Assembly: GCF_053078305.1 (NCBI RefSeq)
Contig: NZ_CP166879.1
Reading direction: 5' to 3' (one strand)
DNA length: 64,000 bases
In this document: piece after piece, positions 54,356-60,514 of the stretch
How positions within the stretch are numbered: position 1 is the first letter of the stretch
Layout: each line of letters starts with the position of its first letter
Position numbers and translations under genes: made by a program
Notes under the pieces: model-generated
What the model was told of the DNA's origin: nothing
What the model saw: only the letters and a program-made list of their open reading frames with translations
The model's database searches: none

Positions 54356-54565
54356 GTAATTTAACGAATTTAACTTTTCAGTACATCACGTAAAATAATT
54401 AAAACATCCTTTTTCTTTGGAGGTACTCAGCCACCGGCGTTATTAGTCCTGGTTTAGCAATTTTACGGCTAATTCATTATTTCTGGTCACATTATAGTCA
54501 GGATCGCTTTATATCTCCGTGCTAGAAAAAACAAGTTTAATTCTGTTTTTTCACGGAAGGTCACT

Positions 54566-57500
54566 ATGGCTTCGACAAATGCGCATCAAATAAAAAATAA
54601 TGATCAAAACTCTTTATGTGGTCTGGGTGACAAAATACGCCGCCTGACCGCCGGAGTTTGTTTATTTACACAATTTTTTTTCCCCGTCATGGCGACGGCA
54701 CAAAATGTGGTACACGCTAAACCTCAGACGACAGTTTCATCTGCCCCCCCTCTACTAGAAAATAATACGGTGCCTTACACGCTTGGTGCGCTGGAATCAG
54801 CGCAAAGCGTTGCTGATCGATTCGGTATTTCACTGGAGGAGCTTCGTCGTCTTAATCAGTTCCGTACTTTTGCTCGCGGCTTTGATAACGTGCGCCAGGG
54901 TGAAGAACTGGATGTTCCGGCAACAACCTCGCAGAAAAGCCATGAGCAACAAAATGCCGTACCGCCTGCGAATGGCGAAAACACGCTGGAGAATCAAATA
55001 GCCAGCACCTCGCAGCGAGTTGGCACTCTGCTTTCACAAGATATGAATAGTGAGCAGGCCAGCGGCATGGCGCGTGGTTGGGCGTCTTCAGAAGCCTCTG
55101 GCGCGATGACTGATTGGTTAAATAACTTTGGCACTGCGAAAATCTCTCTGGGTGTGGATGAAGATTTTAGCCTGAAAAATTCGCAATTCGACTTCCTGCA
55201 TCCGTGGTATGACACACCTGATTATCTGCTCTTCAGCCAGCATACCCTTCACCGAACAGACGATCGTACCCAGATCAACACCGGTTTGGGCTGGCGTCAT
55301 TTCACCTCCAGCTGGATGTCAGGCATCAACCTGTTTTTTGACCACGACCTGAGCCGCTATCACTCCCGCGCAGGGCTTGGCGCAGAATACTGGCGTGATT
55401 ATCTGAAGTTGAGCAGCAACGCTTATATCGGCCTGACCGGCTGGCGTAGCGCACCAGAATTGGATAACGACTTCGAAGCCCGCCCGGCCAACGGCTGGGA
55501 TTTACGCGCGGAAGGCTGGTTACCTGCCTGGCCACAACTGGGGGGAAAACTGGTCTATGAACAATACTATGGCGATGAAGTGGCGCTGTTTGACAAGAAT
55601 GATCGTCAAAGTAACCCCCATGCTATTACCGCAGGCCTCAACTATACCCCCTTCCCGCTTCTGACTCTCAGTGCGGAACAGCGTCAGGGGAAGCAAGGTG
55701 AAAATGACACACGTTTTGCCGTTGATCTGACCTGGCAACCCAGCAGTTCAATGCAGAAACAGCTTAATCCGGACGAAGTGGCCGGACGGCGCAGTCTGGC
55801 CGGTAGTCGTTATGACCTGATTGATCGCAACAACAACATCGTTCTGGAATACCGCAAGAAAGAGCTGATTCGCCTGAGTCTGCTGGATCCGGTGAAAGGG
55901 AAGTCTGGAGAAATAAAACCGCTGGTTTCCTCGCTACAGACCAAATATGCCCTGAAAGGCTATAACATCGAAGCCGCTGCGCTGGAAGCTGCCGGAGGTA
56001 AAGTCAGCACGTCTGGAAAAGATATCACGGTCACGCTGCCAGGTTACCGCTTCACTAACACCCCAGAAACCGATAATACATGGTCGATAGACGTTACCGC
56101 CGAGGATGTAAAAGGTAACCTGTCACGGCATGAACAAAGCATGGTAGTTATTCAGGCTCCGACATTAAGCCAGAAAGATTCTCTGTTATCCGTCAATCCG
56201 CTAACCGTGGCTGCAGATAAAAAATCGACGACCACATTGACCGTTACTGCGCACGATTCCGACGGAACTCCGGTGCCGGGGCTGGCGCTGCAAACCCGCA
56301 GTGAAGGCGTTCAGGATATCACCCTGTCTGACTGGACAGATAACGGTGATGGTAGTTACACACAGATACTGACCGCCGGAACGACATCAGGTTCAGTAAC
56401 ACTGACGCCGCAAATTAACGGTGAGAGTGCGGTAAAAGAATCCATCGTCGTTAATATCGTCCCTGTTGTCTCATCCCGCGACCATTCATCAATAACAATT
56501 GATAACGTATCGTATTATGCCGGAGACGACATCAAGGTTAGGGTGGAACTGAAAGACGACAGCAATCAACCGGTTGCATATCAAAAAGAGGAATTGGTAA
56601 AAGCCGTTACTGTCGAAAACAGCAAACCTGGCACCACGATTGTCTGGCACGAAGAGCAGCCGGGGGTTTATGCCGCGAATTATCCGGCCCATAAGCAAGG
56701 GACTGCACTAAGGGCACAACTTAGCCTTCACAACTGGAATGCTCCACTGCAATCGCATATTTATAACATTGAGGCAAACCAGAATAAGGCTCGCGTTGCC
56801 ACATTATCAGCGACAAATAATGACGTTTACGCCGATAAAAAGACATTTAATACCCTCACGATCAACGTCACTGATGAGAGTGATAATCCCCTGACAAATC
56901 ATCAGGTCACCTTTAAGAATGAAAAAGGAAGCGCGGAGTTTGTCGAACCGCCGCAGCAAAATACGGATGCATATGGTGTTGCCACAATAAACATGGTAAG
57001 TCAGGTTGCGGAAGAAAATACGATTAGCGCCACGCTGCCAAATGGTTTCTCACAACGGATAATTGCGAAATTCGTTAGCGATTCGAGTACGCCAAAATTC
57101 AAACAACTGGTTGCCGATCCAGATACCATTATTGCTGGCAACAGCCAGGGCAGTACTCTGACCGCCATCGTCACAGACTTTCATAACAACCCGTTAAAAG
57201 ATATGAAAGTGAATTTTGTGGCACCTGGTGGCTCGCAACTGGACAACACGACCGCCACAACAGACCAGTCCGGTATTGTGCGGGTGCACCTGACCAGTTC
57301 AAAAGCTGGTAGCTATTCCGTCGATGCCTCGCTTGAGGTGGATAAAAATATTCACCAGTCGGTCACGATCACCGTGGTCCCAAACAGGGAACAATCGGTA
57401 ATGACCTTGAATGCCGGGTCGGGCAGTGCGATCGCTAACAATACAAATATCGTTACCCTGACTGCCAGTGTGAAAGATGTTTATGGACACCCGTTGCCGG

Positions 57501-59853: not shown

Positions 59854-59929
59854 CAGACTGATAACAAACGCTACATTGCCGGATGTGCTGCGCTTATCAG
59901 GCCTATATAGCCCCTGCAATATATTGAAT

Positions 59930-60514
59930 TTATTGTTTTTGTACCCCAGTCGGCATAAACGACCACTCAAGAAACTCAACAGCAACCGTTGATGTCAGCC
60001 AGACCCCGTTTTCCGCTTGCCAGAAAGGGATGCCTCGTTTCGCCATCTCCTGTGCTTTGACGGTTAAGATAACCGGCGATCCGTGTCTTGCTCCCACTTT
60101 GCGTGCCGTTGCTTCATCAGCAGAGAGATGCACGTAATGACGATCCCCTGCAATCAGCCCCTGTTTTTTTATCTCGTCAAGGAAACGGCTTGCCGTACCG
60201 TGGTAGAGAAACTGTGGCGGTGTTTTTTCGGCAAAGGAAATAGCGACCTGCGAAGTCGAATGCCCCTGAACCGCGCGGATGCACCTACCATCACTGGAAT
60301 AATTAAAACGCTTTTTATCGCTGGTTGCGACCACGGTATCCAGCAATGCACGGGTTAACCGCTTGCCCGCTTTTTGGGCACAGAGTATAAGCTTATCGAT
60401 ATCCGCCCATCCTTCACGGTCCAGTACGATACCAATCGCCTCCGGTTTGTGTCGGAGGACAAAACTTAAAAACTTGCTCGTATCCGCCAGCTCTTTTTCG
60501 TTGTACTTTGCCAT
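59930..60514 (-). CDS. kptA: RNA 2'-phosphotransferase (Tpt1/KptA family)
   Basis: 194 aa from [25 protein letters not shown]; start chosen inside the 228-aa ORF. Confidence 0.85.

What the first reader, a model, noticed from the sequence alone, without database searches (positions are those of the whole stretch)
54356..59930. Giant inverse-autotransporter adhesin inserted between yjiJ and kptA
The 1746-aa ORF has the architecture of intimin/invasin-family inverse autotransporters: long signal region, LysM-like segment, beta-barrel, about 12 Big_1 Ig-like repeats, and a Cys-containing 200-aa C-terminal domain unlike the repeats (candidate receptor-binding module). K-12 has no such gene here, to my recollection. 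It is followed by a bidirectional terminator and a REP unit.
Basis: partly seen in the sequence, partly recalled or inferred. Interest (0 to 1): 0.5.

Follow-up and report, generated by a model that had tools for sequence, protein, structure and literature searches.

The report
Known E. coli adhesin gene iatD
The large gene is an intact copy of iatD, an already named and partly characterised E. coli surface adhesin of the intimin/invasin type, so the finding is correct but not new.

Summary
Window 54566-59806 (+) is an intact 1746-aa ORF. It carries an inverse-autotransporter beta-barrel (Pfam IAT_beta, E 9e-108), ten Big_1-type Ig repeats plus two other Ig-like domains, and an invasin D4-D5-like tip with one conserved cysteine pair. 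It is the gene RefSeq calls iatD. It is 97.5% identical, without gaps, to IatD of strain SMS-3-5. Goh et al. 2019 (PMC6714894) showed that protein to be surface-exposed and to drive biofilm formation when overexpressed. iatD sits at this same site in 638 of 5426 complete E. coli genomes. K-12 lacks it: its yjiJ and kptA are 12 bp apart.

"Inserted" needs a correction. iatD is the right-hand part of a 10.5-kb alternative allelic block (window 49488-59961). The block also holds a low-GC pentapeptide-repeat gene, named espX6 in O157:H7, and yjiK/yjiJ alleles only 81% identical to K-12's (dS 0.9-1.5, against 0.09 for kptA). All three components occur in 636-638 genomes, and no intermediate yjiK/yjiJ alleles were found.

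The downstream hairpin and REP unit are real, but the hairpin lacks a classical U-tract. LysM support from Pfam is weak. Verdict: already known, low interest.

The parts
54356..54565 (+). yjiJ-iatD intergenic region (210 bp, AT-rich). It holds a GGAAGG Shine-Dalgarno-like motif before the ATG and only weak sigma-70-like matches.
   Evidence: Sequence. The promoter scan gives a 9/12 match at 54370-54399, and the number of sites is not above the shuffle expectation. No terminator-like site follows yjiJ.
54566..59806 (+). iatD coding sequence, 1746 aa plus stop, intact.
   Evidence: PGAP names it iatD in near-identical genomes. It matches SMS-3-5 IatD at 1703/1746 residues with no gaps. The exact protein is WP_044189348.1.
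54566..54700 (+). Extended N-terminal signal region, residues 1-45. It has a long charged n-region, a hydrophobic core LTAGVCLFTQFFFPVMATA and a probable cleavage after ATA.
   Evidence: Read directly from the translation. Inferred; no signal-peptide predictor was run.
54744..54750 (+). Poly-C tract (C7) at codons 60-62. A C8 version is the frameshift that inactivates iatD in O157:H7.
54770..54916 (+). LysM-like periplasmic segment, residues about 69-117.
   Evidence: Pfam LysM gives only E 0.052 over residues 79-99. The NCBIfam IatC and YrIlm N-terminal models span this region. Sources name some homologous fragments 'LysM domain-containing'. LysM is reported for IatD in PMC6714894.
55007..55834 (+). 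Inverse-autotransporter beta-barrel, residues 148-423.
   Evidence: Pfam IAT_beta E 9.3e-108, covering 2-279 of 279 model positions. PDB 4e1t and 4e1s barrels match at E 1.5e-81 and 1.1e-65.
55874..56170 (+). Post-barrel stretch, residues about 437-535, taken to be an Ig-like domain.
   Evidence: Inferred from its position between the barrel and the first Big_1 repeat, by analogy with intimin and invasin. It has no Pfam hit of its own, and the FdeC 4e9l match covers only 527-647.
56183..59188 (+). Ten Big_1 / Invasin_D3-type Ig-like repeats, residues 540-1541. Their mutual identity is 14-39%.
   Evidence: Pfam and the self-built repeat HMM. The repeat at 643-713 is weak.
59222..59518 (+). Invasin D4-like Ig domain, residues about 1553-1651.
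   Evidence: Pfam Invasin_D4 E 7.9e-5, HMMER alignment to invasin 1cwv, AlphaFold model.
59522..59803 (+). C-type-lectin-like tip domain (invasin D5-like), residues about 1653-1746, with Cys1660 and Cys1742.
   Evidence: Alignment to 1cwv including Cys907 and the GEWG motif. Conserved columns in the 36-sequence alignment. Model pLDDT 96.2. Foldseek gives 1cwv E 1.8e-21 and 1f00 E 4.5e-14.
59824..59853 (.). Perfect 12-bp palindromic hairpin between the convergent genes iatD and kptA. It is a candidate bidirectional terminator.
   Evidence: Folding gives -23.5 and -21.2 kcal/mol, z -5.4 and -4.6. The terminator scan does not call it.
59878..59905 (+). A single REP unit.
   Evidence: 3 matches with at most 3 mismatches in the window against 0 expected. 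The same roughly 80 bp recurs at other intergenic sites in K-12 and in other Escherichia loci.
49488..59961 (.). 10.5-kb alternative allelic block with the order espX6-like gene, yjiK*, yjiJ*, iatD. K-12 has 2.2 kb in its place.
   Evidence: Window against K-12 by blastn. The three components occur in 637, 636 and 638 of 5426 genomes. dS values are. The block ends lie inside the 3' ends of ytiA and kptA.
59930..60514 (-). kptA, convergent with iatD. It is 194 aa here and 184 aa in K-12; the extra 10 codons lie inside the variable block.

Best explanation
This is an intact orthologue of iatD, which encodes a type Ve (inverse autotransporter) adhesin.

Proposed mechanism. The roughly 45-residue signal region directs Sec export. 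A short LysM-like periplasmic segment probably contacts peptidoglycan. The 12-stranded IAT beta-barrel is inserted in the outer membrane. The C-terminal passenger then passes through the barrel and folds outside the cell. The passenger forms a stalk of about 12 Ig-like domains, tipped by an invasin D4-D5-like superdomain whose lectin-like end carries one disulfide (Cys1660-Cys1742). The exposed passenger mediates surface attachment and biofilm formation. Its receptor is unknown.

Shown here: the domain architecture, orthology to IatD, the chromosomal position and the population distribution.
Shown by others, for the 97.5%-identical SMS-3-5 protein: surface exposure and biofilm formation on overexpression.
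Inferred from the family: the secretion route, peptidoglycan binding, the disulfide and receptor binding by the tip.

Genomic setting. The gene is not a stand-alone insertion. It is part of a 10.5-kb anciently diverged allelic block (espX6-like, yjiK*, yjiJ*, iatD) carried by about 12% of complete E. coli genomes.
For: Identity and position:
- An ORF of the stated size lies at the stated place.
- PGAP annotates the same gene at the same site as 'iatD: inverse autotransporter IatD' in genomes 99% identical over 10 kb.
- It is 1703/1746 identical to SMS-3-5 IatD without gaps, and SMS-3-5 has the same gene order.
- iatD was named and characterised in PMC6714894: surface immunofluorescence, and biofilm formation in microtitre and flow-cell assays.

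Architecture:
- IAT_beta E 9e-108. Solved invasin and intimin barrels match.
- Big_1 / Invasin_D3 / Invasin_D4 domains are present.
- The tip aligns to invasin D4-D5 at the sequence level (E 3.7e-12) and at the fold level, using a model with pLDDT 96.
- The two tip cysteines are conserved in homologues.
- YeeJ is a collinear paralogue at 49% identity. Its LysM region binds peptidoglycan according to PMC5595812.

Allelic block:
-.
Against: - No expression or functional data exist for this strain.
- Pfam does not significantly detect LysM (E 0.052).
- No IatD-specific NCBIfam model matched. The best hit is the IatC N-terminal model, and it scores below its cutoff.
- Goh et al. found no autoaggregation and no binding to extracellular-matrix proteins, so the natural ligand is unknown and the biofilm phenotype comes from overexpression only.
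- The HMMER alignment puts Asn1664 of IatD opposite the invasin residue I identify from memory as integrin-binding Asp911, so invasin-like integrin binding cannot be assumed.
Confidence: 0.95

Rival explanations
1. iatD is a discrete, recently acquired insertion (a small genomic islet) dropped between otherwise ordinary yjiJ and kptA genes.
For: In K-12 and several other Escherichia species, yjiJ and kptA (or yjiH) are directly adjacent with no iatD. iatD is present in only about 12% of complete E. coli genomes.
Against: - The yjiK-yjiJ segment next to iatD is only 80.7% identical to K-12's, while the flanks are 98% identical. dS is 0.89 and 1.50 against 0.09 for kptA.
- The yjiK/yjiJ alleles are strictly bimodal: 636 genomes at 95% or more, 4740 at 80-90%, none between.
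- An espX6-like gene 2 kb further left is present in 637 genomes, a number matching the other two counts.
- The GC content of iatD (0.47-0.53) is typical of E. coli.
- No integrase or transposase is annotated in the block.
- The block's right end lies inside the kptA coding sequence.
Confidence: 0.08
2. The protein is a functional invasin: an integrin-binding, cell-entry-promoting protein like Yersinia invasin, rather than a general adhesin or biofilm factor.
For: The closest solved structure for the tip is Yersinia invasin. The D4-D5 superdomain architecture and the disulfide are conserved.
Against: - Identity to invasin in the tip is only about 24%.
- The invasin residue I take from memory to be Asp911 aligns with Asn in IatD.
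- Overexpressed IatD did not bind extracellular-matrix proteins in PMC6714894. Invasion was not reported there.
Confidence: 0.07
3. The gene is a cryptic or decaying locus: silent under most conditions and on its way to loss, with no current role.
For: Both O157:H7-type genomes examined, EC4115 and strain 350, carry iatD as a frameshifted pseudogene (C7 to C8 at codon 60), and kptA is frameshifted there too. Most E. coli lack the gene. Related inverse autotransporters are poorly expressed in laboratory culture according to PMC6714894.
Against: - In this window the 5.2-kb ORF is intact. It is also intact, and exactly 1746 aa long, in five other iatD-positive genomes examined, which are 97-99% identical to the window in DNA.
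- A 90%-identity cluster of 1685 sequences consists almost entirely of 1746-aa members among those read.
- Keeping an ORF this long open argues for purifying selection.
Confidence: 0.15

Closest known systems
IatD of E. coli SMS-3-5 (EcSMS35_4876; Goh et al. 2019, mSphere, PMC6714894)
   Same: Same length (1746 aa) and 97.5% identical with no gaps. Same chromosomal site between yjiJ and kptA, with the same neighbours: a pentapeptide-repeat gene and yjiK. Same reported architecture: signal sequence, LysM, beta-barrel, Big_1 repeats and a C-type lectin domain.
   Different: 43 scattered amino-acid substitutions. SMS-3-5 has the poly-C tract interrupted, and its pentapeptide-repeat neighbour is shorter, 657 against 724 aa.
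YeeJ (E. coli inverse autotransporter; PMC5595812)
   Same: A collinear paralogue: 49% amino-acid identity over residues 12-1541, and 39% over the alignment reaching the tip. A 1.8-kb 5' stretch covering the LysM, barrel and first Ig-repeat regions is about 77% identical in DNA. YeeJ-type C-terminal fragments are about 50% identical to the IatD tip. Both promote biofilm formation when overexpressed.
   Different: YeeJ is longer (2358 aa, with more Ig repeats) and lies at a different locus near mtfA and tRNA-Asn. Peptidoglycan binding by LysM was shown for YeeJ, not for IatD.
Yersinia invasin (PDB 1cwv, 4e1t)
   Same: The beta-barrel matches at E 1.5e-81. The C-terminal Ig plus lectin-like superdomain with its cysteine pair is the best structural match.
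   Different: Invasin has about five extracellular domains, IatD about thirteen. Tip identity is about 24%. The residue I take to be integrin-binding Asp911 is not conserved in the alignment.
Intimin (PDB 1f00, 4e1s)
   Same: Same type Ve topology, same barrel family, Ig stalk and lectin-like disulfide-bonded tip.
   Different: Intimin is encoded in the LEE and binds the translocated receptor Tir (PMC6714894). IatD is not LEE-linked and matches the NCBIfam intimin model far below its cutoff, 360 against 1400 bits.

Membership tests
Inverse autotransporters (type Ve secretion; intimin/invasin family) | An IAT-type 12-stranded beta-barrel domain is present. | tested here: met
   Pfam IAT_beta E 9.3e-108 at full model length. 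The solved invasin and intimin barrels match at E 1.5e-81 and 1.1e-65.
Inverse autotransporters (type Ve secretion; intimin/invasin family) | Inverted order: the barrel is N-terminal and the passenger C-terminal. | tested here: met
   The barrel is at residues 148-423, and the Ig repeats and tip at 437-1746.
Inverse autotransporters (type Ve secretion; intimin/invasin family) | An N-terminal signal peptide for Sec export. | tested here: inconclusive
   A hydrophobic core and an AxA-like site are visible in residues 27-45. No dedicated predictor was available.
Inverse autotransporters (type Ve secretion; intimin/invasin family) | A passenger built of Big_1-type Ig-like domains. | tested here: met
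   Ten repeats by Pfam and by the self-built HMM.
Inverse autotransporters (type Ve secretion; intimin/invasin family) | A C-type-lectin-like tip with a conserved disulfide (present in the intimin, invasin and YeeJ subgroup). | tested here: met
   Sequence alignment to invasin D4-D5. The model has pLDDT 96 and its best fold matches are 1cwv and 1f00. Cys1660 and Cys1742 are at least 90% conserved. Formation of the disulfide itself was not tested.
Inverse autotransporters (type Ve secretion; intimin/invasin family) | A periplasmic LysM domain (an optional feature of the large members). | tested here: inconclusive
   Pfam LysM gives E 0.052 and only a partial match. No homologous fragment has a precomputed LysM hit, although two are named LysM by their sources. 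LysM is reported for IatD in PMC6714894.
Inverse autotransporters (type Ve secretion; intimin/invasin family) | The passenger is actually displayed on the cell surface. | not testable with these tools
   Shown by immunofluorescence for the 97.5%-identical SMS-3-5 protein (PMC6714894).
IatD orthologue group | Near-identity over the full length to the reference IatD (EcSMS35_4876). | tested here: met
   1703/1746 identical with 0 gaps.
IatD orthologue group | A conserved chromosomal position. | tested here: met
   The gene lies between yjiJ and kptA in the window, D8, SMS-3-5, EC4115 and five further genomes.
IatD orthologue group | Named iatD by the RefSeq annotation pipeline. | tested here: met
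   'iatD: inverse autotransporter IatD' is annotated under the match in all listed genomes that hold the whole region.
Intimin | Passes the NCBIfam intimin equivalog cutoff. | tested here: not met
   360 bits against a cutoff of 1400, and only the barrel region aligns.

The most novel reading that the evidence does not exclude
The 10.5-kb block espX6-like, yjiK*, yjiJ*, iatD is an anciently diverged allelic cassette. Its synonymous divergence from the common allele, 0.9-1.5, is as high as I recall for E. coli against Salmonella, and no sampled species representative has a matching allele. It would be kept in a minority of E. coli as a co-inherited unit that links a type III effector-family gene, an SdiA-regulated-family protein, a transporter and an adhesin. 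The C7 tract at iatD codon 60 would serve as a mutational on/off site. I did not find this linkage in the main text of the IatD paper.
Probability: 0.12. Interest if true: 0.35.

Novelty: already known. Interest (0 to 1): 0.12.

Why it matters
The scan gains little from this finding. The gene, its architecture, its presence or absence across E. coli and a first phenotype were published in 2019, and RefSeq already names it. It does show that the first-stage reader can recognise an inverse autotransporter from raw sequence.

The side result is modestly useful. iatD is inherited with an espX6-like gene and deeply diverged yjiK/yjiJ alleles as a single block. This matters for anyone using iatD or espX6 as independent 'virulence gene' markers, because they are not independent. 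It also bears on how this chromosomal region evolves. The receptor of the lectin-like tip remains the real open question.

Tried and rejected
- Single-sequence AlphaFold of the tip gave a useless model, pLDDT 30. It was replaced by a run on a 36-sequence alignment.
- A scan of GTDB species-representative genomes for IatD peptides found nothing. This says only that no representative genome carries a near-identical iatD.
- A second scan, with window-type YjiJ, found no species with a window-type allele; the best hits were 90-92% identical in amino acids and of K-12 type. The donor lineage of the block therefore remains unidentified.
- The word-indexed protein search returned mostly short fragments and no full-length IatD. 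It was of limited use beyond showing that YeeJ-type tips are about 50% identical.
- The NCBIfam library has no matching IatD model; only the IatC N-terminal model hit, below its cutoff.
- The terminator scan did not call the post-gene hairpin, so I describe it as a hairpin, not a proven terminator.
- The Rfam scan gave only a sub-threshold ES036 hit overlapping the REP unit. I rejected it as REP-related noise.
- I considered phase variation at the poly-C tract. Both O157:H7-type genomes examined have C8 and four other genomes have C7. This looks like a fixed lineage-specific frameshift rather than switching, and the question is untested.
- I considered intimin membership and rejected it.
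Full report
**Observation**

The window contains an ATG-started ORF of 1746 codons at 54566-59806 on the + strand. It lies between a 392-aa MFS transporter gene (yjiJ, 53177-54355, +) and a convergent RNA 2'-phosphotransferase gene (kptA, 59930-60514, -). The ORF is open over 5.2 kb and has ordinary E. coli base composition, GC 0.47-0.53.

**Anatomy of the protein**

- **Barrel.** Pfam finds a full-length inverse-autotransporter beta-barrel at residues 148-423, E 9.3e-108. The solved barrels of Yersinia invasin (4e1t) and intimin (4e1s) match this region at E 1.5e-81 and 1.1e-65.
- **Ig repeats.** C-terminal of the barrel, Pfam finds Big_1 / Invasin_D3 repeats. A profile built from nine of them recovers ten repeats between residues 540 and 1541, one of them weak at 643-713. 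Mutual identity is only 14-39%, so these are old, diverged repeats and not an assembly-prone tandem array.
- **Tip, by sequence.** The last 307 residues align to invasin domains D3-D5 (1cwv) at domain E 3.7e-12. The alignment includes the invasin cysteine that I identify from memory as Cys907, and the GEWG motif.
- **Tip, by structure.** A single-sequence structure prediction failed, pLDDT 30. I then collected remote homologues: 346 cluster representatives at E up to 0.001. I aligned 36 tip segments and predicted again, obtaining pLDDT 96.2 and pTM 0.87. Foldseek against the PDB puts invasin 1cwv first (E 1.8e-21), intimin 1f00 second (E 4.5e-14), then InvE, InvD and FdeC.
- **What the 'C-terminal 200-aa domain' is.** It is an Ig domain (about 1553-1651) plus a lectin-like domain of about 95 residues (about 1653-1746).
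- **Cysteines.** The protein has four: two in the signal region (18, 32) and two in the tip (1660, 1742). The tip pair is at least 90% conserved across the 36 homologues. By my recollection it corresponds to the invasin and intimin disulfide.
- **Signal region.** The N-terminus reads as a long signal region: a charged n-region, then LTAGVCLFTQFFFPVMATA. This is read from the sequence only.
- **LysM.** The segment is weak by Pfam, E 0.052 and partial. Goh et al. report a LysM domain for IatD, and some homologous fragments are named LysM by their sources.

**Identity of the gene**

- A 10-kb query around the gene matches 634 complete E. coli genomes over at least 80% of its length. The feature under the match is annotated 'iatD: inverse autotransporter IatD'.
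- The name comes from Goh et al. 2019 (mSphere, PMC6714894). They defined iatA-D in strain SMS-3-5 and found a complete iatD in 6% of 126 genomes and 10% of ECOR strains. They showed that overexpressed IatD reaches the cell surface and promotes biofilm formation, but causes no autoaggregation and no binding to matrix proteins.
- I fetched the SMS-3-5 locus. Its IatD is 1746 aa and 1703/1746 identical to the window's protein, with no gaps.
- The exact window protein is already in NCBI as WP_044189348.1.
- The closest paralogue is YeeJ: collinear, 49% identical over residues 12-1541, with tips about 50% identical. YeeJ's LysM region binds peptidoglycan (PMC5595812).
- NCBIfam has no matching IatD model. 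The IatC N-terminal, intimin and SinH models all hit the barrel region below their cutoffs.

**K-12 and the 'insertion'**

The difference is not a simple insertion, however. A blastn of the window against K-12 gives five segments:

| Window segment | Content | Identity to K-12 |
|---|---|---|
| 47173-49487 | yjiM, yjiL, ytiA | 97.8% |
| 49488-52272 | 724-aa pentapeptide-repeat ORF, GC 0.32-0.36 | no counterpart |
| 52273-54333 | yjiK, yjiJ | 80.7% |
| 54334-59961 | iatD | no counterpart |
| 59962 onward | kptA, yjiH | 98.3% |

- Synonymous divergence is 0.89 for yjiJ and 1.50 for yjiK, against 0.09 for kptA.
- Across 5426 genomes the yjiK-yjiJ allele is strictly bimodal: 636 genomes at 95% or more to the window type, 4740 at 80-90%, none between.
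- The pentapeptide-repeat segment occurs in 637 genomes, and PGAP names the gene espX6 (T3SS effector family) in O157:H7. iatD occurs in 638 genomes.
- The matching counts, and the same gene order in every genome whose full block I inspected (D8, SMS-3-5, EC4115), indicate one co-inherited block of 10,474 bp (49488-59961). It replaces 2.2 kb in K-12-type genomes.
- Both ends of the block lie inside the 3' ends of flanking genes and change their C-termini. ytiA/DUF3343 is 88 aa here against 85 in K-12, and kptA is 194 aa against 184. The NCBIfam RNA 2'-phosphotransferase model covers only residues 1-184.

**Origin of the block**

- A scan of GTDB species-representative genomes with IatD peptides found no relative.
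- A scan with window-type YjiJ found K-12-type alleles in other Escherichia species (E. whittamii, Escherichia sp. E1V33) and in a MAG labelled Citrobacter. These are 95-98% identical to K-12 over yjiK-yjiJ but only 81% identical to the window. The K-12-type yjiJ-kptA junction was seen in E1V33 and the MAG; E. whittamii lacks most of kptA there.
- The common, iatD-less arrangement is therefore widespread in the genus. The iatD block is the deep-branching minority form, and its donor is unidentified.
- One Citrobacter species (sp. Cu233) has a 1042-aa inverse autotransporter about 1 kb downstream of a yjiJ homologue, 45% identical over the N-terminal 700 residues. This hints that an IAT gene next to yjiJ may be old, but it is a single case.

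**Flanks of the gene**

- Downstream of the stop codon a perfect 12-bp palindrome lies at 59824-59853. It folds at -23.5 kcal/mol on the + strand and -21.2 on the - strand, z -5.4 and -4.6.
- The hairpin sits between convergent genes, so a bidirectional terminator role is plausible. The T-run is short, though, and the consensus scan did not call it.
- The REP unit at 59878-59905 is confirmed: 3 copies in the window against 0 expected, and related copies occur at other intergenic sites.
- A sub-threshold Rfam ES036 hit overlaps the REP unit and is probably noise.
- Upstream, the 210-bp yjiJ-iatD spacer has only weak promoter-like matches, and no terminator-like site follows yjiJ. Co-transcription with yjiK-yjiJ cannot be excluded.

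**State of the gene in other lineages**

- In O157:H7 EC4115 and in strain 350, iatD is annotated as frameshifted.
- The cause is one extra C in a C7 tract at codons 60-62 (window 54744-54750), just after the signal region.
- Four other iatD-positive genomes have C7 and an intact gene. SMS-3-5 and Z142-2 have the tract interrupted.
- This looks like a fixed lineage-specific inactivation. It also explains why Goh et al. counted few 'complete' genes although 18 of their 126 genomes were phylogroup E, which I presume to be mostly O157:H7.

**Mechanism**

By homology to intimin, invasin and YeeJ, the most likely route has five steps:
1. Sec export.
2. Periplasmic anchoring through the LysM-like segment.
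3. Insertion of the barrel into the outer membrane.
4. Export of the passenger through the barrel.
5. Folding of about twelve Ig domains and a disulfide-bonded lectin-like tip that projects from the surface.

The architecture is shown here. Surface display and biofilm promotion were shown by Goh et al. for a 97.5%-identical protein. The rest is inferred from the family. The ligand is unknown. The HMMER alignment puts Asn opposite the invasin residue I take to be the integrin-binding Asp911, and no matrix binding was seen, so invasin-like function should not be assumed.

**Verdict**

The feature is already known and named. The only addition is the linked, anciently diverged 10.5-kb block, which corrects 'inserted' to 'part of an alternative allelic cassette'. 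Interest is low.

Noticed in passing
window 49826-52000 (+): A 724-aa pentapeptide-repeat ORF with GC 0.32-0.36, clearly foreign in composition. It is absent from K-12 and is named espX6 (T3SS effector family) by PGAP in O157:H7. It is present in 637 of 5426 genomes, a number that matches the iatD count. Its length varies between strains (657-727 aa).
   Followed up: partly
window 52267-54355 (+), yjiK and yjiJ: These alleles are only about 81% identical in DNA to K-12's (dS 1.50 and 0.89; amino-acid identity 84% and 90%). Across E. coli they are strictly bimodal with no intermediates. Other Escherichia species carry the K-12 type, and the donor of the window type is unknown.
   Followed up: partly
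window 59930-59961 (kptA 3' end) and about 49450-49511 (ytiA/DUF3343 3' end): Both ends of the variable block fall inside coding sequence. kptA therefore ends with 10 extra codons (194 against 184 aa) and the DUF3343 protein has a different C-terminus (88 against 85 aa) from K-12.
   Followed up: partly
window 54744-54750: A C7 homopolymer at iatD codons 60-62. O157:H7 EC4115 and strain 350 have C8, which is the frameshift that makes iatD a pseudogene there. kptA is also frameshifted in those genomes.
   Followed up: partly
L027 12120-15248 (Citrobacter sp. Cu233): A 1042-aa inverse autotransporter lies about 1 kb downstream of a yjiJ homologue. It is 45% identical to IatD over the N-terminal 700 residues. 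It may be a positional relative or a coincidence.
   Followed up: no
window about 27877-28865 and 35904-37203: Compared with the near-identical strain D8, the window lacks the roughly 11.6-kb hpa (4-hydroxyphenylacetate) cluster. It also differs in a 1.3-kb stretch corresponding to D8's type I restriction S subunit gene. Both lie in the known variable region around the restriction genes.
   Followed up: no
window 59899-59939 (-): A sub-threshold Rfam match to the ES036 sRNA (28.1 bits against a gathering score of 37.6, E 0.022). It overlaps the REP unit and is probably REP-related noise.
   Followed up: no
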